DNA of 64,000 bases from a virus (taxonomy: Duplodnaviria; Caudoviricetes). Below, piece by piece: positions 22,154 to 62,462 of this stretch. The number at the start of each line of letters is the position of its first letter. Within the stretch, counting starts at the first letter, position 1. The position numbers were made by a program, and so were the translations under genes. A model generated the notes under the pieces. That model saw only the letters and a list, made by a program, of their open reading frames with translations, ran no database searches and was not told where the DNA came from. The stretch spans positions 64,001-128,000 of the IMG/VR virus record IMGVR_UViG_3300010965_000001; one strand, 5' to 3'.

Positions 22154-23422
22154 TCATATTTCTGTCATTTCATTGTAATTTTTGCCATATTTTGTTTTAA
22201 CAGGAAACTGTCCGTTAATCTCCATTATCTTCTTCACCGTATGCAAATAACTTTCCGTTTCTCCTTCTTCTACATCAAATAATATGGAATCGTACGTATA
22301 TAAGACAGGAACAGACTTAAATGCTTGCGTATCTATCAATATCTTGCGCATTACCATCAAATTCTGCTCTGTTTCATAATTCTGTATAATGTAATTGAAT
22401 AACTTCGTATCACTGTCTGCAATAATCGGTTTTTGTGATATTACCGATGGAATATACCCATTTGTGCGATAGTCAGCCCACAACTCTGCGATGAGCGCAG
22501 GTATCTGTCTGAAATAGGTAATATGTGCATATTCATCCAACAGTCCGCCATACAACATACGAAATGTAATCTTTTTTGATTCATCATACATTTCTTCCGT
22601 AACATGGTCAACATTGAAATACTGTTTGGCGAAATGTGCATGCACCGATTCAGGCGGCAGGTCATAACCCATCAATTTTGCGATTAAGCGCACATGGTAT
22701 CCATCATAATCAAGTAAGAATAACGTTCCATTCTCAAATCTTGATATGAATGGAGTTCTACTTCCATTTTCTTTGTTAAGTGCGTTGTAATTCACGTTTC
22801 CGTATCTGTTAGACGGTCTGCCTGTTGTCGTTAAGTGATTGTATTGACTATAGACGTAACCGTTCTGAATTAATTCCTTTTTATCGAAATTATCATCGAC
22901 ACGTAATCCATATCGCTCGATTTGTGCTAACGTAGGAAGGGTAATTTGGTTTATGAATTTGCAGGGTTTATCGTCTTCACCGCTGAAGGCAAGGCAATCC
23001 TTTGAAAATTGCTCTAAGTCTTCGGTGATTGCATCGATTATTTTATAAATGGGGGTAATCTCCCAATCGCGCCTACGTTTGAAGATTTCGACTTCACATT
23101 CCATATTCTGTACATAATAGATTGATTCAATGTCTACTGAACCTTCGATATTAAAGTATTTTTTGTTATATACGAATGGTTTGTCAAAAAGTCCGCTCAT
23201 AAGTGATGGGAGATTACCGCCGATGCTCATACATTCAGAATGACTGATGCTAAATACGAACAGTTCATCTAACTTGAGTGGTTTGGCGAATATGACGATG
23301 GGAAGAGAATTCACGGGATGTGAGTTCTCATTAAATAGAGGGAATACCAAAAATCTTTCAGTCTTTGCTAATTCCTGTAGTCGGAGTGTGTCCGTTGCAT
23401 ATTCTATGATTGTAATTTTCAT
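22154..23422 (-). CDS. family A DNA polymerase-like protein (short, divergent)
   Basis: TTGRPS, motif A LLDYDGYHVRL, motif B SKKITFRMLYGG, YIIQNYET, motif C YTYDSILFD. Start at 23422. Confidence 0.8.
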   Translation of the reverse strand: MKITIIEYATDTLRLQELAKTERFLVFPLFNENSHPVNSLPIVIFAKPLKLDELFVFSISHSECMSIGGNLPSLMSGLFDKPFVYNKKYFNIEGSVDIESIYYVQNMECEVEIFKRRRDWEITPIYKIIDAITEDLEQFSKDCLAFSGEDDKPCKFINQITLPTLAQIERYGLRVDDNFDKKELIQNGYVYSQYNHLTTTGRPSNRYGNVNYNALNKENGSRTPFISRFENGTLFLLDYDGYHVRLIAKLMGYDLPPESVHAHFAKQYFNVDHVTEEMYDESKKITFRMLYGGLLDEYAHITYFRQIPALIAELWADYRTNGYIPSVISQKPIIADSDTKLFNYIIQNYETEQNLMVMRKILIDTQAFKSVPVLYTYDSILFDVEEGETESYLHTVKKIMEINGQFPVKTKYGKNYNEMTEI

Positions 23423-23428
23423 AGTATA

Positions 23429-23457
23429 AATATACAAATAAAAATGGTCAAAGTCAA
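23429..23457 (-). promoter_or_regulatory. sigma70-type promoter overlapping an ATATTTATA element
   Basis: TTGACT-N17-TATATT; the ATG lies 6 nt downstream of the -10 box, so the transcript is probably leaderless. Confidence 0.75.
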
Positions 23458-33913: not shown

Positions 33914-34606
33914 TTAAATTGTTAATCTTATAAAAGTACAGTTCAATAAATTTTCAATCTCTTGCTGTCTTTTAAGGTCTTTTTCTTTATGTGACAGATG
34001 ACGTTTCTCATCAACTTCTATCACAACATTTTTTTCTCTGTCATATCCGTCAACCCAGTATCCCAATTTTTCTATATGATACTCTCCGCCATTTTCAGCA
34101 TGTTGAAAGTTATAACCATACTGCTTCCCACACTCTTCAATCAGAAGACATGCCTTTGGATTGTAATTCGGTGCCATACTATTCTGTCGCATCCATTCAC
34201 TTACCGCCAGTCGTTTCTTTCTTTTTGTTTCATCCGAATCTTTTTTACCTAATTTGATTTCTCTCATTTTAAGTTTAGATTCTTCTGTATGTGGTTTTCT
34301 AATCTGTTTAATTCTTGCTTCGCATAATTTCTTATGAGCTTCTTCGGAAATTTTACGGTCTACATTTATTTCACGCAATATCCGTTTTGTTTCCTCAGTA
34401 TGATGCTTACCTAACATACCTTGATGATTTTTTATATTATTTCTAACTTCATCAGTTTGATGTTTTCCGTAAAATGGATTATTTTCACCCAAGTTAGCAC
34501 ATACTTTGCATCTTGTGTTGTTCTGTGTGGCTCGAGCCAATACATATTTATCTCTATATACTTGCTCTACGCCACACTCTGGACAATTCTTTTTATATTC
34601 TATCAT
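33914..34606 (-). mobile_element. free-standing endonuclease: Zn finger + NUMOD3 repeats + Vsr/DUF559-like nuclease
   Basis: CPECG...CKVC; HTEETK/HTEESK repeats; YWVDGYDREKNVVIEVDEKRH. Start at 34606. Confidence 0.75.
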
Positions 34607-34641
34607 CTTATAACCTTTTATAAATATCATCCAACTAAAAA

Positions 34642-40170: not shown

Positions 40171-40179
40171 ATATTTATA
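40171..40179 (+). promoter_or_regulatory. ATATTTATA element driving the only plus-strand gene
   Basis: Same 9-mer, flipped in orientation together with the gene. A weak TTGCTT-N16-TAAAAT lies just upstream. Confidence 0.65.
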
Positions 40180-43313: not shown

Positions 43314-43424
43314 ATGTTTATCCTTTATATAGTTTTATGATAAGATTGTCTTATCACTTATATAAATATACAAAGAATAAACTTCTGTAAATAGTTAGAA
43401 CTTTCTAATGAACATTAGAAGTTT

Positions 43425-49786: not shown

Positions 49787-50401
49787 TTATTCTCCCGTTA
49801 AAATTTCTGTAATAATCTTGTTAATGCGTGCATACTTGCCAAGTTGTTTATCCATTACCAAATCCACACCTTCATTCATACGATTACTTGGATGCATGAA
49901 TGCTCCTTGAGTAGAAGGATTTGATACAAAATCAAATGCGATAAGTTCAAAGTCATCTTGAACGATGTTGTTATTTGATTCGTCCATTTTAACTGAGCCT
50001 AATCCTCTTGAACTGATACCTAACTTAATTCCTGCTCTGAATAATTCTTTTAAAATGTTTCCAGAAGGTGTTCCAAGAACTTCAATCTCACCCATTAAGT
50101 TGTTAGAGTCCCACCAAATTCTACGAACATTGTGACTTGCATTATTCAAGTTTACAATGGAACTGTCGGGATGGTCTAACTCACCAAGTGCTCTACGTTC
50201 TTTAACTTGAATTTCGGAATATTTCTTAGATTCACGCATAAGAACTTCTGCAGGATATACTCTTCCATTTTGGTTCTTTGCTTCCGCGCGCTGAAGAACT
50301 CCACCGACTATTAACGGTTTATTCTGTGAGATGCTTTCGTTTACTAATTCGGTTGATACATCGAACAAAATGGTATTTATAAGTAATTGTCTGCCGTCCA
50401 T
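49787..50401 (-). CDS. prohead core protease (T4 gp21-like)
   Basis: LQRAEAKNQNGRVYP, GELDHP, LGISSRGLGS, FDFVSNPSTQGA. Confidence 0.95.
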   Translation of the reverse strand: MDGRQLLINTILFDVSTELVNESISQNKPLIVGGVLQRAEAKNQNGRVYPAEVLMRESKKYSEIQVKERRALGELDHPDSSIVNLNNASHNVRRIWWDSNNLMGEIEVLGTPSGNILKELFRAGIKLGISSRGLGSVKMDESNNNIVQDDFELIAFDFVSNPSTQGAFMHPSNRMNEGVDLVMDKQLGKYARINKIITEILTGE

Positions 50402-51498
50402 TATTTCATCCTTTTCTTAATCACCTGTTTAGGTGCTGCTGGTTGAATTGCGAATTTATCGGAAAGTTTATCCAAATAATTCATCATCTTTACTAATTCC
50501 TGTGCTAACCCTCTATCACCACCACGTGCGTACTTTGTCGCCAACTCTTTTGTTGTTGCACGAAGTGCTTCAAGTTCTTCCAATTTGCTTTCTTCGGGTT
50601 TAATATCTTCGTAAATTTCACGAATCATATGTGAAAGTTCCGCAATTTCTTCAGGTTTTGGTGGAGCCTCCTCCTCACCCTCTGGAGGTAATTCCTCGCC
50701 TTCTGCCCCCGTTGGTGCACCTTCTGCCCCTGGTTCTGCGGGCGGGAGTGGTTGTCCGTCAGGTCCGACTTCTCCACCTTCTGGTGGCATTTCTTCGCCC
50801 GTTGGAGGCATCGTCATTCCGCCTCCCCCGCCGCCACCCGTCGAACCTCCACTACCCCCTCCAACATCACCCATATCTCCACTTGGTGCGGGAGGTGCGG
50901 CACCTGCCTCAGCACCGCCATCAATGTTGTCATTTGGTTGACCACTCATTGGGTCTTCAATTTTTGCTAAGTTATAATAGACAACATCCAAAATATCTTT
51001 ACGTAAGAAATATTCGTCCGCTTTCATATTCACACCAGTTTCCTTCGTGAAGTCACGTGCGGCTCGTTGGATGAAATCTTGATATACTTTGAATGCATCT
51101 TCCTTCGTAAAGGTTCCGTCTGCCTGCATTCTGTCAAACAATTCTTTAATATCTTTCATGTCTTCTTTGTAACGTTCACTTCCCATCACAAAGTCCATCA
51201 ATTCTTTTGCTTGGTCAGACATTTTAATATCAAAGTCTACTTTGTTAATAACATCCTCAAATAGTTTACGACGAGTTTCGGAAATTGCACCTTTACGTTT
51301 CGGAGGTGCAAGTTTCATACCTAACACTGTTCCAATTTTCTTACGTCTTGCCTCACCCTTGGAAGTGCCACCAGTAAATGCGTTTGGAGTTTGAATAATG
51401 TCCGTCCCAGTTCCAATTGTACCAGATGACGCAGTAGAATTCATCTCTTGCATTATAGCAGTTCTAATAAGTTTACGGAGTTCGTGAAGTTTAGCCAT
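50401..51498 (-). CDS. head-module hypothetical protein with a G/P/E-rich disordered segment
   Basis: N-terminal TPNAF motif; low-complexity linker; coupled to the protease gene. Confidence 0.65.
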   Translation of the reverse strand: MAKLHELRKLIRTAIMQEMNSTASSGTIGTGTDIIQTPNAFTGGTSKGEARRKKIGTVLGMKLAPPKRKGAISETRRKLFEDVINKVDFDIKMSDQAKELMDFVMGSERYKEDMKDIKELFDRMQADGTFTKEDAFKVYQDFIQRAARDFTKETGVNMKADEYFLRKDILDVVYYNLAKIEDPMSGQPNDNIDGGAEAGAAPPAPSGDMGDVGGGSGGSTGGGGGGGMTMPPTGEEMPPEGGEVGPDGQPLPPAEPGAEGAPTGAEGEELPPEGEEEAPPKPEEIAELSHMIREIYEDIKPEESKLEELEALRATTKELATKYARGGDRGLAQELVKMMNYLDKLSDKFAIQPAAPKQVIKKRMK

Positions 51499-53057: not shown

Positions 53058-55013
53058 TTAGATGATTAAGTTGCTTTCATCCAGCATTCTTGGTTCTTTT
53101 TTCTCTTCTACCACATGTTCTGTGTTTAAACTTTCGGTAATCATTTCCTTAGTCTTTCTATTCTTCATTTCGTTAATCCACTTATTAGCCGATTCCATTG
53201 GGAAAGGACTTCTATTAGTTTTATTAGGTCTACTTGGATTCAAATCAGTGTTTCTAACTGTATTGAAATATCCAGTTGAACCAAGTGGGTCACGACCTCG
53301 TGGATGGTTGTCTTGTCCATATCCCATCGCAAGTTTATTGAACGAACCCTTCTCATTTCTACGGACATTGGTGGTTCCGAAGTCAATTTCTTCACCGTCC
53401 TGACCAACAGGTTTTACCATCTTTTCATTATTTGTAACCGCAAATTCACGTCCATCAATGTTCAATGATGCTAAATCATGCGGTGTACCGAATGAACGTC
53501 CCGTCTTCTCAGGGTCATTTCCTTCTTCTTCAATCTGTTTCATACGGAAACGTCTACGTGCATCATCCGCTGTTTCTTCACGTTGGGTATCCATATCATC
53601 GTCACTCATATCAAACACATTCTTGTATATCCACGTTGTTGATAAGGTGTTAAGTTCACTTAAGTCCTTAACGAGATTGATTTTCGTCTGTAATAACGCC
53701 AACTTTTCCTGCTCATAAATCGTTGACGGATTTGTCAACTGCAATGAAAAGTCTACCAAGTCTTTATCTTCAAATCCTTGTGAATACAAGTGAACTACCG
53801 CCATCTTGTACAATTCACTCTCTACAATACGTTGAATACGTTCGATTGTTCTTGCAAATCTAACGTCTTCTGCTGCAAGTGTTGCTTTTCCGCCCAATTT
53901 TTCATCAAATCCTAAGAAGGCTTTTGGAATTTTGAGTGCGGCGAACAATTTATTCTTTAAATATTCAATATCGTCTATAGCATTGAACTCAAGTCCAGGA
54001 AGGTTTTCAATTGTTGTAGTGTTATCCCCACCACGAACTGGAAGATAGAAGTCTTCCGTGATGTTCATCATGTTATATTTTAAGTTATAATCACCATTTG
54101 CAGGATTCACATATGGTGCCTTCTTCATCGTATCCATAATACGTTGCATGTATTCATCAACTTGTGGAGGAGGTATATTTCCAATGTCGATTTTGAAGAC
54201 GCGCTTCTCAGGTGCCCTCATAATACGATGGATTAACATAGCATCTTCCATAAGGATTAACTGTTTCCAAAGTTTACGCGCAGGCTCCAACGTTGAGCGA
54301 CCATAAGGTAAGAAGTTTGAATCTCCGAGTAAACGGAAGTGAGCAACTTCATAATTTTGATAGATTGGTGCGTTTGTTCCAACTCGCGATTGGATGTATG
54401 CGGCGTTTTGAACTCTAAACTGAACACTATTTGGATTCATTGGGTCAAATCCTTCTTCTCTCAAGATTTCAAATGTTGAGATTGGGTGAACGTTGACGAT
54501 ACCAAACTTGTCAGATATATCTAACTTCAAGAAGAAGTCACCATACTTACACATACCACGAATCCATCCCCAAAGGTTGAATTCAATGTTAAGAATGTCA
54601 TAGAAAAGATTTTTGAGAACGCTCAATACACGTTCATTGTCAGTCTTGATGGTTAAGCAGTATCCATACTCACTTCGAACAGTCGTTTCATCTGCGAAGA
54701 TGTCAAGTGCTGCTGCAATGATTGGGTCCGTATCCATCGAATCATAGTCTGACAATAGTTCCATACGTGATGCCAAGTAAGGACCAGCAATACCACGACC
54801 AAAACCACTTCCGCCATATCCATTCTGACCACCCAATGGTTTGTTCGCGGAGTGTATCTTAGTGAAACGGTCAATCAAAAAGTTTGTTTCAAGTCCACCC
54901 ATCGATTGAAGATGGTTGGTATCGGAAACTTTTAGTTTCTTTCCACCCAAATTTCTAACGATAACGTCACTTGAAAAAAGTTTTTGTAATCTAGTGAATA
55001 GTTTAGTGTCCAT
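53058..55013 (-). CDS. portal protein (T4 gp20-like)
   Basis: IAAALDI.ADE, CKYGDFF, LMEDAMLIHRIMRAPEKRVFKIDIGN.P, EDFYLPVRG, ALKIPK.FLG. Confidence 0.96.
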   Translation of the reverse strand: MDTKLFTRLQKLFSSDVIVRNLGGKKLKVSDTNHLQSMGGLETNFLIDRFTKIHSANKPLGGQNGYGGSGFGRGIAGPYLASRMELLSDYDSMDTDPIIAAALDIFADETTVRSEYGYCLTIKTDNERVLSVLKNLFYDILNIEFNLWGWIRGMCKYGDFFLKLDISDKFGIVNVHPISTFEILREEGFDPMNPNSVQFRVQNAAYIQSRVGTNAPIYQNYEVAHFRLLGDSNFLPYGRSTLEPARKLWKQLILMEDAMLIHRIMRAPEKRVFKIDIGNIPPPQVDEYMQRIMDTMKKAPYVNPANGDYNLKYNMMNITEDFYLPVRGGDNTTTIENLPGLEFNAIDDIEYLKNKLFAALKIPKAFLGFDEKLGGKATLAAEDVRFARTIERIQRIVESELYKMAVVHLYSQGFEDKDLVDFSLQLTNPSTIYEQEKLALLQTKINLVKDLSELNTLSTTWIYKNVFDMSDDDMDTQREETADDARRRFRMKQIEEEGNDPEKTGRSFGTPHDLASLNIDGREFAVTNNEKMVKPVGQDGEEIDFGTTNVRRNEKGSFNKLAMGYGQDNHPRGRDPLGSTGYFNTVRNTDLNPSRPNKTNRSPFPMESANKWINEMKNRKTKEMITESLNTEHVVEEKKEPRMLDESNLII

Positions 55014-55019
55014 ACTTAG

Positions 55020-55811
55020 TTACTCCAATATTTCTATAAATTCACAATTTAAAAAATTAGTAATTTCCAATTTTCGTTTTTTATCACACTCTTCTTTTCT
55101 TTTGTGGTGTTTTTCGTAATATTCAATAACCACATTCTTTTCTTTGTCATATCCATCTACAAAATATCCAAGTTCTTTGATATGATATTCTCCACCGTTA
55201 AGTGCATGCTGAAAGTTATAACCATGTTCTTTACCATATTGCTCTATAATTTCACATGCTTTTGGATTGAAATTTGGAAATTTAACATTATATTTTTCGG
55301 CGTGTGCAATTGATGCCAATCTTAATTTTTTCCGTGTTTCATCTGATGGAACATTGCCTATGTGCGATATACTCAAATTTTTCTTATGTTCATCAGAAAA
55401 AGTTGTTCCAAGTTGAGAAATACTTATCTTATGTTTAGTTTCTTCCGAACAAGTATGAAAATGTTTTCCAGTCTGAGATATACTCATTTTTTTCTTAGAT
55501 TCTTCAGTATGTACCTTTCCATACATCGGGGCATCAATACCTTTATATTTTCCAAATTTAGATTTTGATATTTTGTCTATAGTTTCTTGTGGCATTCCAT
55601 TTTCAAATTGTTTTTTAGATGCTTCTCTGATTTTTTCCTTAGTTTCTTCTGACCGATGTTTTCCAAAATGTGGATGATTTTCTTTATTCATAAAACGTAT
55701 TTTAGCTGAACAAGATTTACAATTAAAATTATTTGCAATGGATTGGTCACGTATTTCCATTGATTTATATATTATTGGTTTTCCACACGTAGGACAAAGT
55801 TTTTCAAACAT
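55020..55811 (-). mobile_element. free-standing endonuclease (Zn finger + multiple NUMOD3 + Vsr/DUF559-like)
   Basis: CPTCG...CKSC; HRSEETK, HTEESK, SEETK, SDETR repeats; YFVDGYDKEKNVVIEYYEKHH. Confidence 0.75.
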
Positions 55812-55842
55812 TTTTACCTCATTTAGTGTATAGATATAAATA

Positions 55843-57429
55843 TTAGATTAACCAAATTAAATCTTCTTTTTTCCCACCAACTTGCCAATCCCACGCATTA
55901 TTTGATAATGCTTTTGGTACGAATACTGGTTGCACCTTTGTAATGTGTGATAATGCCACTTTTTGTAACTCAATTCCTTCGGTTCTTAAACGAAGTGCCG
56001 TATCTCTAACCCACAATCCAATTGCATATGACATTACTAAGTCATCATTATAACCAGCAATTGCTTCTGCTTTTGCACCGTTAAAGATATAAGTAAAGAG
56101 TTCATCAATTAATCGCTTACTTCTAATAGTTACACTATAATCTCTCATATATGAATCCATTTTAGAGATGATAAGTGGTTTGGTTCGTTGTGTTGTAGAG
56201 AAACCTGCGGTTAATTGTGATTTCTCTTTTAAATCGATTCGTTTATCAAGATTTACTGCGGTATCTACCAATGCCAAATCTTTTGATGCGTAAAATAAGT
56301 TTTGATAATTTCTATCCAATACTTCTTGAATAACTGCCCATCCGATATTTGCATTTTCTATAACAAGAAGTGCGTTGTTGTATTCGGTTGCGACCGTTAC
56401 ACACATGCCGCCGAATTCTTTAGTGCCAATCTTTCCTTTATATTCTGCAACTTGCTCAAGAGTTTCCGCGTCAATTACTTGAATAGCGGAGTAGTCATTT
56501 CCATCACCTCTCGCCACGTCAGCACTTACCATGTATGTGCGTGAATAGTCGGGATACTGCCAAATCCAATATGCACTTTCTATTCCACGTTTTTCCATTG
56601 GTTCTTTAACCATTGTATCCATGTATACCTTGAGTACTTCTGGGGGAACGATACTATTACCAGACGAAATAAAGTCCGCATCACATTCCTGCGCCGCAAG
56701 TTTTGCTCCAAGTTTTACAGTCTGCTTATCTCGCCATGATTGGTCACGCTCGGGATGTACTGTCCAATCCATACGTATTGTGTGGAAGTTATTGACTCCC
56801 GACTCAGCCTCTACCCATGTTCTGTGGAAGAAGTTACCAACACCATTTGGCGTGGAAAGAACAATAACATCTCCACCCGTTGATAATGCAGGTTGTGCAC
56901 CAGTCCAAATATCATCAATCTCATCAATGAACGCCGCTTCGTCAATAATAAGTAATGACAATGCTTCTGAACGACCTGCGTCTGGTGAACTTGAAACGGC
57001 TTTGATTTGTGAACCATTTGTAAAACGGATTGAGAGTTTGTTCTGCTCTACCGTCTGATTCTTTAACCAACTTGGAAGGTTTGATTGCATGACTTGAACC
57101 TTTGTGACAAGGTTCTTTGCGGTATCCTGCTTCGTTGCGATAACAAGAATATTTTTGTCTGCGTTGAAGGTCATCAACCATAATGCGTACGCGGCAACAA
57201 GTGTTGAGATACCCAACTGACGTGACTTTAACACGATATTATAGTTGTTATCTCGTAGTTCGTACAACGCATTCTTTTGGAATGGGTATAGAACGAATGG
57301 AATCTTACCTCTAACTGGATGCTGAATGAAGCAATATTTTGACATGAAGTGGACTGGGTCTGCCACGCACTTCACATATTCTTCATGGATTAGTTGCTTT
57401 ACTGTTTTTTGTGCTGGTGTGTCTGCCAT
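55843..57429 (-). CDS. terL: terminase large subunit (T4 gp17-like)
   Basis: KSRQLG, LIIDEAAF, LSTPNG, SADVARG...D.S, NDDLVMS. Confidence 0.96.
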   Translation of the reverse strand: MADTPAQKTVKQLIHEEYVKCVADPVHFMSKYCFIQHPVRGKIPFVLYPFQKNALYELRDNNYNIVLKSRQLGISTLVAAYALWLMTFNADKNILVIATKQDTAKNLVTKVQVMQSNLPSWLKNQTVEQNKLSIRFTNGSQIKAVSSSPDAGRSEALSLLIIDEAAFIDEIDDIWTGAQPALSTGGDVIVLSTPNGVGNFFHRTWVEAESGVNNFHTIRMDWTVHPERDQSWRDKQTVKLGAKLAAQECDADFISSGNSIVPPEVLKVYMDTMVKEPMEKRGIESAYWIWQYPDYSRTYMVSADVARGDGNDYSAIQVIDAETLEQVAEYKGKIGTKEFGGMCVTVATEYNNALLVIENANIGWAVIQEVLDRNYQNLFYASKDLALVDTAVNLDKRIDLKEKSQLTAGFSTTQRTKPLIISKMDSYMRDYSVTIRSKRLIDELFTYIFNGAKAEAIAGYNDDLVMSYAIGLWVRDTALRLRTEGIELQKVALSHITKVQPVFVPKALSNNAWDWQVGGKKEDLIWLI

Positions 57430-58213: not shown

Positions 58214-58786
58214 TTATTGTTGAAATATTTTTGGAAATTTATATCCAAATGCTTTCACGAGTTGACCTGCTACTGCGTTTGCTTCATCTTCTATCTCGCC
58301 GCCAATATCTTGAACTGGTCCTTTTATCTTGTCATTGTCAAGTTGTTGTTTATGAACTAACTCATGTGCAAGACTACGTGCGATGTCGGCGGTATTTCTA
58401 TTTGAACCATACACAACACAATGTGAAGTAGATGGGTCAAATGCCGCCATTGTCTTGAGAGCATAGGAACCTCTATCATTTGTGACTGTGACCCTAACAG
58501 GAGTTGTTATTCCTAAATTCTTTAACGCATACTCTGTGAACTTACGGAGCATACTGAACTTAGTCTTTGCAACATCACCATCATCAGTCTCTAAAAGATA
58601 AGAACATTTACCCTTAACTTCACCAATTGCTGCAGCGGGAGCATCTCCAAGTGATGCATTAACGTGCGCTTCAGCCGACCCGCCTTGAACAAATGGCATG
58701 CGATACCCACTGTTATGTTTCCTAACAATGGGTGGGTGCATGTGTTTCTTTTTCTTTACTTCAGTCAACAATGTCTTTAGTTTCAT
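58214..58786 (-). CDS. zincin-like metallopeptidase-domain protein
   Basis: RSLAHELVHKQQ (HEXXH) and downstream EDEANA.AG; MKLKTLLTE N-terminus. Confidence 0.7.
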   Translation of the reverse strand: MKLKTLLTEVKKKKHMHPPIVRKHNSGYRMPFVQGGSAEAHVNASLGDAPAAAIGEVKGKCSYLLETDDGDVAKTKFSMLRKFTEYALKNLGITTPVRVTVTNDRGSYALKTMAAFDPSTSHCVVYGSNRNTADIARSLAHELVHKQQLDNDKIKGPVQDIGGEIEDEANAVAGQLVKAFGYKFPKIFQQ

Positions 58787-59100
58787 TATGGTTCCTTTGG
58801 TGCTTCCGCAGGAGGAAGCTGATTCGTTGTATCATTGATTGGTTCTTTTCCTTTTTGCCATACCTTGCCAGCAAAACTGATACCATTTGCAAGTGCATAT
58901 AAGAACAATGTTCCTTGTGCTATGTCAGGCATTATACCATCCTTAAGCGTAACATAGATGAACATCGACCATACAGAAATATTCGACATAACAACTGTAG
59001 TCACAAAAGAAAATCTTGTTGCCGACCAGGAGGTGGCATCTGACACTTCTTGTAACATCGATGACATTTTATTGAATAACGTTTGAATCCACCGTTGCAT
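58786..59100 (-). CDS. putative holin (two TM segments)
   Basis: GGGGAG RBS and ATG at 59100; S.TRF + TM1, TM2 ending GKVWQK, charged tail. Confidence 0.55.
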   Translation of the reverse strand: MQRWIQTLFNKMSSMLQEVSDATSWSATRFSFVTTVVMSNISVWSMFIYVTLKDGIMPDIAQGTLFLYALANGISFAGKVWQKGKEPINDTTNQLPPAEAPKEP

Positions 59101-59644
59101 GATACTTCTCCCCGAAGGACTTCTCAAAATCTTCATACATCTGTTTGAGAACATTGTCCATTCGTTCTTTGTAGTGATTCACATCACCCTGTCCTAACTT
59201 CCACGTTTCATACTGTATTGATGCAAGTTGCTCATTTACGACATCAACATTGGTTGTGCCTTCTTCAAGTCGAATTTTTTCTTCTTTGACCTGTTGTTCA
59301 CAATCTCTGATAAACGAACGAATATTTTCTTTCACTTTATTCTTTTCATATTCTTCGTACTTACCAGCAATACGTAATTGAGTTTCCATTTCAATGACAC
59401 AATCGAAACACATATTATGTAACCAATACATCTTATTGTCTAACTTTTTATTCATTACATGCTTACATTTTGGACACCATAAGGGCATTCGTGCAAATTC
59501 CATGAATGATTCTTTCGGTGCTTCTTTTGCTTTCGGACCATCCAACTCAGGAGTCCAACCAAATTGTAATGTGTTTGTATACTTTGTCAAAAATCCATCG
59601 ATTTTCGCTTTAACTCTATCTTGTTCTGTACCTTTACCAGCCAT
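59069..59644 (-). CDS. Zn-finger hypothetical protein
   Basis: CPKC...CFDC; GAGG RBS before the ATG at 59644. Confidence 0.7.
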   Translation of the reverse strand: MAGKGTEQDRVKAKIDGFLTKYTNTLQFGWTPELDGPKAKEAPKESFMEFARMPLWCPKCKHVMNKKLDNKMYWLHNMCFDCVIEMETQLRIAGKYEEYEKNKVKENIRSFIRDCEQQVKEEKIRLEEGTTNVDVVNEQLASIQYETWKLGQGDVNHYKERMDNVLKQMYEDFEKSFGEKYHATVDSNVIQ

Positions 59645-59660
59645 GTATAACCTCTTCTTT

Positions 59661-62402
59661 TTAGTTTGTATCGTATTGTGCAAGTTCTTGTGGAATTGCA
59701 AATGGTGTTGTTTTCACCGTCTTCACATATTCTTTAAAAATTGCGTCTCTTAATTTTGGAAATTTAAATTGTGGACTCATCATCTTTGTAAACATCGTTT
59801 CAAATGTGCTGACATCTGCATAAGAAATCGGGTCTTTGAATAAATAACGTAACATCTTCTCAGGGTCCGTTTCGATTGTCTTAACATCCAATTTAACACG
59901 TTTACCCTTTGCGTCCATTGTATAAGTTACCAATTGTAATCCATTTTTGAAATCCAATTGATACTTCTGCTTAATTGCAGGGTCTTTTGTATTCATGTTA
60001 ATAACTGCAAAGGCTGATGTTAATAAGTAGTTACGATGTGCTGCTTTCAGCCCTGCTCTTGTACCTTGTGCACCACTCATTACCTTTTCCATCCAAGGGA
60101 CGTTACCAATCATAAAGTCAATCTGAATTGATTCTCCCATGAACTTGTTATGGTCATCTACTACAGGTGCCTTAAATGATATTTGAATCAATCCAGTATT
60201 AATAACCCACACAATGGATGGGTCACTACTTTCCGTAGGTGTCCTGCGTTTGTATTCTTTCAATCCTAACTTATTCATATACTTTCTAAGTGCATCGAAG
60301 AATGTATCCTTGTCAAATGGTTCTTTAAGCCCGATATACTTTGCCATTGCATTAATATCAACTGCAATATCAACGTCATTCATTTCAGGTTTCAAATAAT
60401 TTCCGATGTGTCTGTATTGTAACCCATGCATCTTAATTGAATCGATACAATTTTGAATAGTAGCATCTCTGTATTGGACAGGCATGTTAGGAAGAGGTCC
60501 AAATGATGTACCACCTTCAGTCAATCGTTTCTTTTGAATCTGCTCCATGAGGTTTTTTAATTTCATGTTCTTCCTTTCAGCAATTTGTTTTTTAATATAC
60601 TTGTCCGCCACAGATTCTGGACTTTCGTTCTTTAATAGTTCCAATGCCTTTCCAAGTTTTGTAGATACTAATTGAAAATATTTAATTGTATCTTCCTTCT
60701 TCTTAGGAATCTGAATGTACTTGTCCGCATTTTGGTCAAAGTCTATTTTGATTTTCTGTAAACCATCACTCAACTGAATAAGCAAATCTCTAATTTGAGA
60801 AGGGTTCTGTTTAATCTGTTTACTGATTGAACGGTCTAACATACTAATCTGTTCCATGTAATGCCAATTCAAATTCTTTCGTTTAAGGAATTGACTCTTG
60901 TCGATAACCTTAACCATAGAACCATCGGGTGCTTTGAATACGACACCTTCAATTTCATCACCGAAGTGCGACTTGTAAGTTTGAAGTGCTTTAAGCATTT
61001 CATCCTTATTAGACATTGCGATAGTTTTCACAACATTGAGAATCTTTGTCTTTAATTCTTTTGTTTTTGGTGTTGTTCTGCTGTTAATAATCGTGTCATA
61101 CTTCTGAATGATTTTTGCCAACTTCTCAACGTGCTTAAATTTAACTGCACCAACCCCAACTTTAGGAGTTGCTGTAAACTTTGTTTCTCCCTGAGAGGAA
61201 AGATTTGCTGCGAATTTTTCGACTTGTGCACGGTCTAATCCTTTTCCATCTGCGATAACATGGATGATAATGAATACACCTTTACCAATCTTCTCTTGAC
61301 TGTATAATGTTACGTTGGAATCGTATGATGCAATTCCTTCACCCTTAACAGATACAGTGTTAACTTTATGTCCAACTGCGTTACCAACGGCACCCAATAT
61401 ATTGATATTTTGTAGTCGTTCGTGGAATAAACGGAAATCATCGAACATGAAATTTTCTGCATAATCGGTTGATTGACGTGCTTTTGTATTTCGTGATGAA
61501 GTATAGAATCCTTCTTCATCTACACCAAATTCCATATCCTTCCCATCAACCTTTTCCGTTACTTCAAATCCTTGATTATTTTCGTTCCATGCTTTTAAGA
61601 AGTTGAGTAATTCCGCGGGAGAAAGGTCTTCAAAGTGCATCAACCCTCCTCTGCGTTCTTCTTTTAATGGTTCTTCCGAAGGATTTAATTTATTTCCTAA
61701 TTCATCCACTGATACGGATTCATCATTATATTTCAAGTCCAACGATTCACGTAAATTTTTAGTCAACATATCAAACAACTTTTTAACGGTTGTTGGGTCT
61801 ACGTTTGGATAATTTGTTGCAAAGTGTTTGTAATCTTTATTTACGATGTCTTTACGTAAAATTGTCGCACTAATTGGTTGACCACTCAATCCATCGGTTC
61901 TACGTCCGTAGACGATTGGTTGTGGCACAGGAAGAAGGATTGCCGTAATACCTTGTGGAGTATGTTTTCCATCACGAGTACCAACAGTCTTATATTTACC
62001 ATTTATAGTTGTAACAAACTCATTACTTCTCTTTTGGTCATTCTCTTTATCACTTGCACCAAGAGCAATCTTCCCAACCATATCTTGTGGAAGTGCTAAC
62101 ACATGCTCATATGCCGTTTGCACAGGTGATTCATATGCAGATGCCATAACTTTGATTTTTGGATTAAGTTTCAATGTCTTCAAAACCATCAAACTTTGTT
62201 TCTGCGTAACACCTTCACGTTCTTTTGGACTTACAAATACTAAGACCTGTGAAACTTCAGGATGTGCCGCATATTGATTTGCAATATGTAAGTGACCACC
62301 ATGCGGAGGTTTATATCCGCCGGGAAGCAATACTGTAATATCTCCTTGTTGCTCAAAGAGGAATGGTGCTACCATTTTCCGTGTAAGTTGTTCTATATTC
62401 AT
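59661..62402 (-). CDS. three-domain protein: HIGH-class nucleotidyltransferase + RNA-ligase-like domain + Pol-beta-like nucleotidyltransferase
   Basis: PGGYKPPHGGH and ISAT.LR; EKVDG, KGE, EGVVFK, KVIDK; IGN....NDVDIAVD and QIDFM. Confidence 0.75.
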   Translation of the reverse strand: MNIEQLTRKMVAPFLFEQQGDITVLLPGGYKPPHGGHLHIANQYAAHPEVSQVLVFVSPKEREGVTQKQSLMVLKTLKLNPKIKVMASAYESPVQTAYEHVLALPQDMVGKIALGASDKENDQKRSNEFVTTINGKYKTVGTRDGKHTPQGITAILLPVPQPIVYGRRTDGLSGQPISATILRKDIVNKDYKHFATNYPNVDPTTVKKLFDMLTKNLRESLDLKYNDESVSVDELGNKLNPSEEPLKEERRGGLMHFEDLSPAELLNFLKAWNENNQGFEVTEKVDGKDMEFGVDEEGFYTSSRNTKARQSTDYAENFMFDDFRLFHERLQNINILGAVGNAVGHKVNTVSVKGEGIASYDSNVTLYSQEKIGKGVFIIIHVIADGKGLDRAQVEKFAANLSSQGETKFTATPKVGVGAVKFKHVEKLAKIIQKYDTIINSRTTPKTKELKTKILNVVKTIAMSNKDEMLKALQTYKSHFGDEIEGVVFKAPDGSMVKVIDKSQFLKRKNLNWHYMEQISMLDRSISKQIKQNPSQIRDLLIQLSDGLQKIKIDFDQNADKYIQIPKKKEDTIKYFQLVSTKLGKALELLKNESPESVADKYIKKQIAERKNMKLKNLMEQIQKKRLTEGGTSFGPLPNMPVQYRDATIQNCIDSIKMHGLQYRHIGNYLKPEMNDVDIAVDINAMAKYIGLKEPFDKDTFFDALRKYMNKLGLKEYKRRTPTESSDPSIVWVINTGLIQISFKAPVVDDHNKFMGESIQIDFMIGNVPWMEKVMSGAQGTRAGLKAAHRNYLLTSAFAVINMNTKDPAIKQKYQLDFKNGLQLVTYTMDAKGKRVKLDVKTIETDPEKMLRYLFKDPISYADVSTFETMFTKMMSPQFKFPKLRDAIFKEYVKTVKTTPFAIPQELAQYDTN

Positions 62403-62462
62403 ATGTATAAATATTAAGATTAATTGGATTTAATGTCGATTTTTACATTTAATACTCATTTA

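What the first reader, a model, noticed from the sequence alone, without database searches (positions are those of the whole stretch)
59661..62402. Three nucleotidyl-transfer chemistries in one ORF: candidate virion-packaged, protease-matured RNA/nucleotide-repair polyprotein
Seen: three domains in one frame. (1) A HIGH-type NTase (GGYKPPHGGH, ~61750-62350). (2) An RNA-ligase-type domain with motifs I, III, IV and V (EKVDG, KGE, EGVVF, KVIDK, ~60570-61660). (3) A Pol-beta-type NTase (GN...DVD, IDF, 59661-60566). The linkers carry L-x-E motifs (NLRE|S, PLKE|E, RLTE|G). Established: T4 gp21-type proteases cut after (I/L)-x-E, and phages use RNA ligases, CCA-like NTases and NAD-rebuilding NMNATs against tRNA-cutting and NAD-depleting defences. 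Inference: this may be a packaged anti-defence toolkit cut into three enzymes during head maturation and injected with the DNA.
Basis: partly seen in the sequence, partly recalled or inferred. Interest (0 to 1): 0.8.

Follow-up and report, generated by a model that had tools for sequence, protein, structure and literature searches.

The report
Phage three-enzyme fill-and-seal repair fusion
A large T4-like phage encodes one 913-residue protein that joins a nick-sealing RNA ligase, a small polymerase-X-like nucleotide adder and a PPAT/NMNAT-like nucleotidyltransferase, most likely to refill and reseal broken nucleic acids; nothing tested supports the idea that it is cut up by the head protease and injected.

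Summary
Window 59661-62402 (-) is one 913-aa ORF with three catalytic modules at almost the coordinates given.

- N module: a HIGH/(H/T)xGH + ISxSxxR nucleotidyltransferase. Its family profile hits PPAT at E 1e-6.
- L module: closest to the nick-sealing RNA ligases NgrRnl, REL1 and T4 Rnl2 (Z 10.4-11.3). Pfam RNA_ligase scores above its cut-off.
- C module: a Pol-beta-fold NTase closest to family X DNA polymerases (ASFV Pol X Z 7.8, 156 of 176 residues aligned). It is not a CCA-adding enzyme and not Pfam RlaP.

All catalytic residues are invariant or nearly so. The three modules recur in phage metagenomes (759 hits) alone, as adjacent genes, and fused in every order (N-L-C, L-C-N, N-C-L, N-C, N-ligase). 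That marks a functional triad.

Best reading: a cytoplasmic fill-in-and-seal break-repair enzyme, on the ligase + NTase pattern known from RlaP systems. The role of the HIGH module is unknown.

The polyprotein idea is not supported:
- [IL]xE occurs 8 times, against 8.1 expected.
- RLTE|GG belongs to a near-invariant hhxEGGN motif that stand-alone proteins also carry.
- The position beside head genes matches that of T4 rnlB (gp24.1).

The idea cannot be excluded without virion proteomics. The same stretch was also noted from an overlapping window of this genome; no look-alike on other DNA turned up in the scan.

The parts
59661..62402 (-). Whole gene, 913 aa (P0001), with modules in the order N-L-C
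   Evidence: the only copy of each module in the 210,562-bp phage genome
61722..62357 (-). N module (residues 16-227): HIGH-superfamily (cytidylyltransferase-like) nucleotidyltransferase. PGGYKPPHGGH lies at 62292-62324 and ISATILR at 61854-61874.
   Evidence: The profile of 63 relatives hits PPAT 3nd5 at E 1e-6, with NMNATs weaker. NCBIfam NadD scores E 6e-5. Pfam PF01467 is below cut-off here but above it in relatives. Position 34 is H in 43 and T in 20 of 63; H37 and R183 are invariant in 63 of 63.
60573..61667 (-). L module (residues 246-610): Rnl2/Rnl5/REL1-type nick-sealing RNA ligase with a helical C-terminal subdomain. Motif I EKVDG 61542-61556, III KGE 61338-61346, IV EGVVF 60936-60950, V KVIDK 60897-60911.
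   Evidence: Pfam RNA_ligase scores 29.5 bits against a cut-off of 27. The AF2 model has pLDDT 93.8. Foldseek top hit is T4 Rnl2 at E 6e-7. VIA gives NgrRnl Z 11.3, REL1 11.0 and T4 Rnl2 10.6, with DNA ligases at 8.6 or less. E283, K284, E485 and G486 are in 34 of 34 relatives.
59676..60566 (-). C module (residues 613-909): PolX-like Pol-beta-fold nucleotidyltransferase. It has an N-terminal helix, the LTEGG motif at 60510-60524, G-N...D-V-D at 60369-60404, and the third Asp (QID) at 60117-60125.
   Evidence: The AF2 model has pLDDT 92.8. The top Foldseek PDB hits listed are family X polymerases, from E 4e-5. The top 9 VIA hits are PolX, led by ASFV Pol X at Z 7.8 with 156 of 176 residues aligned. 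AFDB clusters are also PolX. No Pfam family matched in 50 members. G667, D676, D678 and D762 are in 50 of 50.
62406..62414 (-). ATATTTATA element 3 nt upstream of the ATG; a possible phage promoter or initiation motif
   Evidence: 15 copies in the window against 1.8 expected. It sits in front of genes of mixed classes, so it does not date expression.

Best explanation
The gene encodes a single-chain, three-enzyme nucleic-acid break-repair protein that acts in the infected cell. The PolX-like C module adds the missing nucleotide(s) to a 3'-OH end. The Rnl2/Rnl5-type L module then adenylylates the 5'-phosphate and seals the resulting nick. The target is most probably RNA (tRNA or other structured or duplex RNA cut by host defence nucleases), or a duplex whose 3' strand ends in ribonucleotides. 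The HIGH-superfamily N module is a third, obligatorily associated activity of unknown substrate. It makes, or by pyrophosphorolysis reverses, an adenylyl-pyrophosphate linkage of the NAD/dephospho-CoA type. No proteolytic processing is needed, because relatives run the same three modules as fusions in any order or as separate neighbouring genes. Shown: domain identities, intact active sites, and recurrent fusion and adjacency. Inferred: substrate, order of reactions, and anti-defence role.
For: Catalytic residues are invariant. Architectures among 154 representatives by profile search were N-L-C 5, L-C-N 4, L-C 9, C-L 5, N-C 9 and N-C-L 1. When the DUF6267 ligase variant is also scored, N-ligase and N-C-ligase forms appear. 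Split but adjacent L and C genes occur in L012 and L017. All three families are about 100% viral, with 759 hits. Ligase-associated Pol-beta NTases that restore lost 3' nucleotides before ligation are a described pattern in jumbo phages (PMC7824862). RlaP was shown to add 1-2 NMPs to damaged RNA (bioRxiv 10.64898/2025.12.29.696909). The phage carries 34 tRNA genes and a separate ATP-dependent DNA ligase, so L is not the replicative ligase.
Against: No activity has been measured for any member. The closest folds of C are DNA polymerases, and both L's clade and PolX prefer duplex gaps or nicks rather than anticodon-loop breaks, so the target could be DNA. The phage lacks detectable end-healing enzymes: AAA_33 kinase, RtcB and CCA enzyme were all absent. 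The protein could therefore only mend 3'-OH/5'-P breaks. The PolX match is moderate (Z 7.8, TM about 0.35). The repair model does not explain the N module.
Confidence: 0.5

Rival explanations
1. Ribo-patch or BER-like DNA repair. The PolX-like module fills short gaps in phage (or host) duplex DNA, perhaps with ribonucleotides. The Rnl2/Rnl5-type ligase then seals the 3'-ribo nick, as proposed for Deinococcus DraRnl working with a repair polymerase.
For: C is nearest to family X DNA polymerases, thumb included. The best structural match of L is the Rnl5 nick-sealing ligase NgrRnl. PMC5397189 proposes that Rnl5 seals ribo-nicks made by PolA or PolX. ASFV pairs Pol X with a ligase (own knowledge).
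Against: The phage already has an ATP-dependent DNA ligase. L ranks RNA ligases above DNA ligases. No AP endonuclease or glycosylase partner was seen next to the gene. C has no 8-kDa/HhH DNA-binding domain.
Confidence: 0.25
2. The protein is packaged into the prohead, cut after L-x-E by the gp21-type protease into three enzymes, and injected with the DNA as an anti-defence kit.
For: The phage has a Peptidase_S77 prohead protease. Five of the eight [IL]xE strings fall in or beside the two inter-module regions, and one is at residue 15. The gene and several homologues lie next to TerL, portal, protease or MCP genes. Three of five relatives' contigs also encode S77.
Against: The total [IL]xE count equals the shuffled expectation. 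RLTE|GG is an intrinsic hhxEGGN domain motif present in stand-alone proteins that begin M-INEGGN. Natural L|C gene splits fall about 20 residues upstream of it. The site before L is FGK in roughly a third of relatives. No MuF, portal or MPTase hub and no recognisable targeting peptide were found. No known T4 gp21 substrate is a multi-enzyme polyprotein, and T4 rnlB also sits by head gene 24 (own knowledge).
Confidence: 0.07
3. The protein is not a repair enzyme. The modules make or destroy small nucleotide molecules. The HIGH module would rebuild NAD+ or a CoA precursor, and the Pol-beta-fold module would make or cap a signalling nucleotide, to counter NAD-depleting or nucleotide-signalling defences.
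For: The N profile is nearest to PPAT and NMNAT. CD-NTases appear among weaker fold matches of the C core (Z 4.1-5.5). N relatives are also fused to P-loop kinases, an arrangement that resembles NadR.
Against: The ligase module acts on polynucleotide ends in all characterised relatives. C matches PolX over palm and thumb better than it matches CD-NTases. No NadV partner is in the genome.
Confidence: 0.08

Closest known systems
T4 RNA ligase 2 (gp24.1), Naegleria NgrRnl (Rnl5), Trypanosoma REL1: nick-sealing RNA ligases
   Same: The adenylyltransferase fold matches at Z 10.4-11.3. Motifs I, III, IV and V are present, with K284 as the predicted AMP acceptor. There is a helical C-terminal subdomain as in Rnl2. 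The gene lies next to head genes, like T4 rnlB (own knowledge).
   Different: Sequence identity is only 12-18%, and the Pfam score is barely above cut-off. Motif V reads K-x3-K. The domain is embedded between two other enzymes. The N-terminal signature is GIxHIEDLKP.
Family X DNA polymerases, especially the minimal ASFV Pol X
   Same: Palm plus thumb align over 156 of 176 residues of ASFV Pol X (Z 7.8). The G-[NS]...D-x-D...D catalytic layout is invariant.
   Different: No Pfam PolX model matches. There is no 8-kDa or HhH domain. The module has an extra N-terminal helix with the hhxEGGN motif and extra C-terminal helices. Z and TM are only moderate. The substrate (RNA, DNA, templated or not) is unknown.
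[quoted passage not shown]
   Same: It is a Pol-beta-fold NTase coupled to an RNA ligase, here by fusion. The expected job, adding 1-2 nucleotides to a damaged 3' end before sealing, is the same (PMC7824862; bioRxiv 10.64898/2025.12.29.696909).
   Different: There is no PF10127 match in the protein or the genome. RlaP has an NTase plus an all-helical C domain, whereas this module has a beta-rich, PolX-like thumb.
PPAT (CoaD) and NMNAT (NadD/NadR/NadM), HIGH-superfamily adenylyltransferases
   Same: The (H/T)xGH and ISxSxxR motifs are shared. The family profile hits PPAT at E 1e-6, with NMNATs weaker.
   Different: This is a separate, almost purely viral clade. It is habitually fused to ligase and PolX-like modules. 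The substrate is unknown, and no NadV is in the genome.
Bacterial LigD (polymerase + ligase + phosphoesterase) and the kinetoplastid editosome (TUTase + REL1)
   Same: The logic is the same: one machine combines nucleotide addition and sealing, plus a third end-directed activity.
   Different: The polymerase fold differs (AEP in LigD). The third module is a HIGH NTase rather than a phosphoesterase or exonuclease. There is no homology beyond the ligase core.

Membership tests
Rnl2-type RNA ligase (Pfam PF09414, covalent nucleotidyltransferases) | Pfam model match above the gathering score | tested here: met
   29.5 bits against 27, residues 279-495; 32.9 bits on the six-frame search
Rnl2-type RNA ligase (Pfam PF09414, covalent nucleotidyltransferases) | Motifs I (KxDG), III, IV (EGxV) and V with the catalytic Lys | tested here: met
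   EKVDG, KGE, EGVVF and KVIDK are present. E283, K284, E485 and G486 are in 34 of 34 relatives.
Rnl2-type RNA ligase (Pfam PF09414, covalent nucleotidyltransferases) | Fold closest to nick-sealing RNA ligases rather than DNA ligases or capping enzymes | tested here: met
   NgrRnl Z 11.3, REL1 11.0 and T4 Rnl2 10.6, against DNA ligases at 8.6 or less
Rnl2-type RNA ligase (Pfam PF09414, covalent nucleotidyltransferases) | ATP-dependent sealing of 3'-OH/5'-P nicks with a 3' ribonucleotide requirement | not testable with these tools
   Needs a biochemical assay
Family X DNA polymerase | Pol-beta palm with G-[GS] and D-x-D...D | tested here: met
   G667 is in 50 of 50. Position 668 is N in 39 and S in 11 of 50. 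D676, D678 and D762 are in 50 of 50.
Family X DNA polymerase | Thumb subdomain following the palm | tested here: inconclusive
   The alignment covers 156 of 176 residues of ASFV Pol X, but at Z 7.8 and rmsd 3.7. Foldseek TM is about 0.35.
Family X DNA polymerase | Match to the Pfam PolX models (DNA_pol_B_palm and thumb) | tested here: not met
   No Pfam hit for this domain or 49 relatives. Only 13% of one related Atlas cluster carries PF14792.
Family X DNA polymerase | 8-kDa/HhH DNA-binding domains | tested here: not met
   Only one helix precedes the palm. These domains are also absent from ASFV Pol X (own knowledge).
RlaP (PF10127) | PF10127 model match | tested here: not met
   No match at E <= 1 in the protein or anywhere in the genome
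RlaP (PF10127) | Association with an RNA ligase | tested here: met
   Fused to the ligase here and in many relatives, and adjacent when split
HIGH-superfamily nucleotidyltransferase (PF01467 clan) | (H/T)xGH and ISxSxxR motifs | tested here: met
   HGGH at 34-37 and ISATILR at 177-183. H37 and R183 are in 63 of 63; position 34 is H in 43 and T in 20.
HIGH-superfamily nucleotidyltransferase (PF01467 clan) | Model or profile match | tested here: inconclusive
   PF01467 scores 13.7 bits, below the cut-off of 21, for this protein. Relatives pass (P0014 29.6 bits; best E 2.5e-14). The family profile hits PPAT at E 1e-6. No structure model of this domain was made.
T4 gp21 (prohead protease) substrates / packaged internal proteins | [IL]xE cleavage sites above chance and conserved at module boundaries | tested here: not met
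   8 observed against 8.1 +/- 2.5. The L|C site is part of a domain motif that stand-alone proteins also carry, and the N|L site is not conserved.
T4 gp21 (prohead protease) substrates / packaged internal proteins | Presence in virions and N-terminal capsid-targeting peptide | not testable with these tools
   No cultured relative was found in the phage GenBank set beyond Lak-phage N-domain hits. Needs proteomics.
Polyvalent proteins (Iyer et al. 2017, PMC5512222) | Fusion to hub domains (zincin MPTase, MuF, portal, ArdC-N) | tested here: not met
   No such domain is in the 913-aa protein. A separate small HExxH protein lies two genes away.

The most novel reading that the evidence does not exclude
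The HIGH-superfamily module works on polynucleotide ends, not on a vitamin-type small molecule. NAD, FAD and dephospho-CoA are all A-5'pp5'-X, which is chemically the same as the ligation intermediate AppN. The module could therefore pre-adenylylate 5'-phosphate ends. Alternatively it could resolve abortive AppN ends by pyrophosphorolysis, an aprataxin-like rescue that regenerates ATP. With the PolX-like filler and the Rnl2-like sealer this would give a self-contained three-step repair machine, and the first HIGH-fold enzyme acting on nucleic-acid termini. Its direct fusion to ligase modules even without the PolX-like part fits this.
Probability: 0.12. Interest if true: 0.8.

Novelty: new variant of a known kind. 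Interest (0 to 1): 0.55.

Why it matters
Phage repair of RNA broken by host defence nucleases is known mainly from T4 Pnkp/Rnl1 and, recently, RlaP. This finding defines a large, almost purely viral triad that has no literature I could find. It consists of an Rnl2-like ligase (including Pfam DUF6267 as a divergent ligase), a PolX-like NTase absent from Pfam, and a dedicated HIGH NTase. The fusions are natural Rosetta-stone evidence that nick-sealing RNA ligases work with a PolX-type filler. That partnership was only speculated for Deinococcus Rnl5, and the physiological role of T4 Rnl2 itself is still unknown. The fusions therefore offer a tractable one-protein system for finding what Rnl2-type ligases repair in vivo, and for asking what a PPAT/NMNAT-like enzyme contributes to ligation.

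Tried and rejected
- PHROGs gave no family for the protein.
- phmmer against PDB sequences gave nothing meaningful for the whole protein. The L and C profiles also gave nothing.
- tblastn against GenBank phages found only the N domain, in Lak megaphages.
With P0001 alone it found nothing. A 10-sequence L+C alignment gave 11 loci.
- Stand-alone relatives looked up by identity sat on 1.2-1.6 kb contigs, so they gave no neighbourhood.
- Burroughs & Aravind 2016 (PMC5062991) is not held. 'DUF6267' occurs in no paper.
- No RNA holder was listed among the sequencing runs, so expression timing was not examined.
- The ATATTTATA element was considered as a late-promoter marker. It was rejected because it precedes genes of mixed classes.
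- The idea that L is the phage's replicative ligase was rejected, because a separate DNA_ligase_A_M gene exists.
- The idea that C is a CCA-adding enzyme was rejected. CCA enzymes align at Z 4.0-4.2 over the core only, against PolX at 7.8.
ARAGORN calls an ordinary tRNA-Asn there.
Full report
**Setting.** The window is bases 64001-128000 of a 210,562-bp phage record.
- It has a T4-type large terminase (55843-57429) and a gp20-type portal (53058-55013).
- It has a Peptidase_S77 (gp21-type) prohead protease at window 49886-50416, and a major head protein, tail sheath and baseplate hub.
- ARAGORN finds 34 tRNA genes elsewhere in the genome.
- The finding is the 913-aa ORF at 59661-62402 (-). It lies between a fibre-like gene and four small genes that precede the terminase.

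**Observation.** All quoted motifs are present at the stated coordinates. Profile envelopes divide the protein into N 16-227, L 246-610 and C 617-909. An exhaustive HMMER search found 759 relatives at E <= 1e-3. Each module also occurs alone, so these are three autonomous domains.

**N module.**
- The signature PGG[FY]KPx(H/T)xGH plus ISxSxxR is that of the cytidylyltransferase-like HIGH superfamily. H37, R62 and R183 are invariant in 63 sequences, and position 34 is H (43) or T (20).
- A profile of the family hits phosphopantetheine adenylyltransferases (3nd5, E 1e-6), and NMN/NaMN adenylyltransferases more weakly.
- NCBIfam NadD scores E 6e-5. Pfam PF01467 is sub-threshold for this protein but significant in relatives.
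- The clade is essentially viral. Its substrate cannot be read from sequence.

**L module.**
- Pfam RNA_ligase is just above its cut-off.
- The AF2 model (pLDDT 93.8) is closest to the nick-sealing RNA ligases: NgrRnl Z 11.3, REL1 11.0, T4 Rnl2 10.6. T4 Rnl1 and Trl1 follow at 9.0, and DNA ligases at 8.6 or less. Foldseek puts full-length T4 Rnl2 first.
- Motif residues E283, K284, E485 and G486 are invariant. D286, G287, E355 and K498 are nearly so.

**C module.**
- No Pfam family matches it or 49 relatives. It is not RlaP PF10127.
- The AF2 model (pLDDT 92.8) matches family X polymerases in three independent searches:
  - In Foldseek against PDB, the top hits listed are Pol beta, lambda, mu or TdT, from E 4e-5.
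  - In VIA-align, the top nine are PolX, and ASFV Pol X aligns 156 of 176 residues at Z 7.8. Other Pol-beta-fold enzymes (TUTases, CD-NTases, PAPs, CCA enzymes) align only about 90-105 core residues at Z 4-6.
  - AFDB clusters give PolX as well.
- G667, D676, D678 and D762 are invariant.
- The match is moderate, so I call it PolX-like, not a PolX member.

**Functional linkage.**
- By profile search the modules occur as N-L-C, L-C-N, L-C, C-L, N-C and N-C-L.
- Pfam DUF6267 turned out to be a divergent ligase-like domain. hhalign gives 80% probability and aligns VTEKvDG with vKWDGsP, and motifs IV/V (GGEGYVI...IKLVNR) are visible. It replaces L in N-C-DUF6267 and N-DUF6267 proteins.
- In L012 and L017 the L and C modules are separate adjacent genes.
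- Fusion in every order, plus adjacency when split, is strong evidence that the three activities serve one process.

**Mechanism.**
- A ligase plus a Pol-beta-fold NTase is the described pattern of phage RNA repair. RlaP NTases are predicted to restore nucleotides lost from broken ends before ligation (PMC7824862). RlaP was recently shown to add one or two NMPs to damaged RNA (bioRxiv 10.64898/2025.12.29.696909).
- Both the Rnl2/Rnl5 clade and PolX work on duplex nicks and gaps. Schmier et al. proposed that the Rnl5 ligase DraRnl seals 'ribo-patch' nicks made by a repair polymerase such as PolX (PMC5397189).
- I therefore favour fill-in-and-seal repair, with RNA as the likelier target (0.5) and DNA ribo-patch repair as the main rival (0.25).
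- The phage has its own ATP-dependent DNA ligase. It has no detectable NAD-dependent ligase, CCA enzyme, AAA_33 kinase, RtcB or NadV. The enzyme would thus handle 3'-OH/5'-P breaks without healing steps.
- The role of N is unexplained. Its fusion to ligase modules even without C suggests that it serves the ligation step.

**Polyprotein hypothesis.**
- The premise that the phage has a gp21-type protease is true.
- [IL]xE occurs 8 times, against 8.1 +/- 2.5 expected.
- The L|C 'site' RLTE|GG is part of a hhxEGGN motif. E629 is kept in 47 of 50 relatives, and G630 and G631 in 45 of 50 each. The motif is also found in stand-alone proteins that start M-INEGGN or MIKLLPLLEGGN.
- In L012 the separate C gene has its own SD and starts MLTKTNLRKLIREEIKRMLLEGGN. 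This corresponds to internal M613 of this protein, so the true module boundary is about 20 residues upstream of the proposed cut.
- The L-x-E before L is FGK in roughly a third of relatives, and solo ligases start at MGIKHIEDL.
- The gene's place near head genes recurs in relatives: beside portal, protease and MCP in L011, near TerL in L013, and after MCP in L015. This mirrors T4 rnlB (gp24.1, next to head gene 24; own knowledge), and other relatives sit among baseplate or fibre genes.
- I rate the model at 0.07. It is untested, not disproved.

**Novelty.** The kind (ligase + NTase repair) is known. This triad, its PolX-like NTase, and the reading of DUF6267 as a ligase appear undescribed. I classify it as a new variant of a known kind, with interest 0.55.

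Noticed in passing
relatives P0027, P0030, P0044, P0057, P0076 (alignment A6): Pfam DUF6267 (PF19782, 'unknown function') appears to be a divergent covalent nucleotidyltransferase (ligase) domain. It has a K-W-D-G motif I and GGEGYVI...IKLVNR motifs IV/V. It stands in for the Rnl2-like module in HIGH-NTase + PolX-like + DUF6267 proteins.
   Followed up: partly
window 58214-58786 (-): This 190-aa protein carries an HELVH (HExxH) motif. It has weak Tox-MPTase3/Peptidase_M78 hits and 906 homologues, some named ImmA-like Zn peptidase. A homologue lies directly beside the L-C-N gene in L009/L010. It is a possible accessory or processing protease.
   Followed up: partly
window 59069-59701 (-): This 210-aa protein has a CxxC...CxxC zinc ribbon and matches PHROG 4182 (unknown function). 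A weak homologue lies just downstream of the permuted N-C-L gene in L004 (11834-12151).
   Followed up: no
window, 15 sites, e.g. 62406-62414, 55835-55843, 43361-43369, 40171-40179: ATATTTATA occurs 15 times against 1.8 expected, nearly always on the coding strand just upstream of or at gene starts. The genes are of mixed classes (RNR, DNA polymerase fragment, baseplate hub, sheath, adaptor, homing endonuclease). It is probably a phage promoter or initiation element. In three cases it lies inside the listed ORF start, so those starts may be downstream.
   Followed up: partly
window 60564-60566 (-), residue M613: The internal Met (MKLKNLMEQ...) aligns with the start codon of the stand-alone C gene in L012. 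This looks like the scar of a gene fusion. Separate translation of the C module from here is possible but untested.
   Followed up: partly
window 55020-55811 (-) and 33914-34630 (-); L013 11138-13815: NUMOD3-type homing endonucleases sit between the terminase and portal genes and near the sheath gene. In relative L013 the terminase homologue is in three separated pieces, which suggests introns, inteins or inserted endonucleases.
   Followed up: no
G000 174569-189916 (outside the window): ARAGORN calls a cluster of 34 tRNA genes, all on the minus strand. One is an ordinary tRNA-Asn at 187204-281, where another first-stage note read 'permuted tRNA-like modules'.
   Followed up: no
window 22154-23437 (-): This 427-aa ORF matches only the C-terminal part of a PHROG DNA polymerase family. 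The polymerase gene may be split.
   Followed up: no
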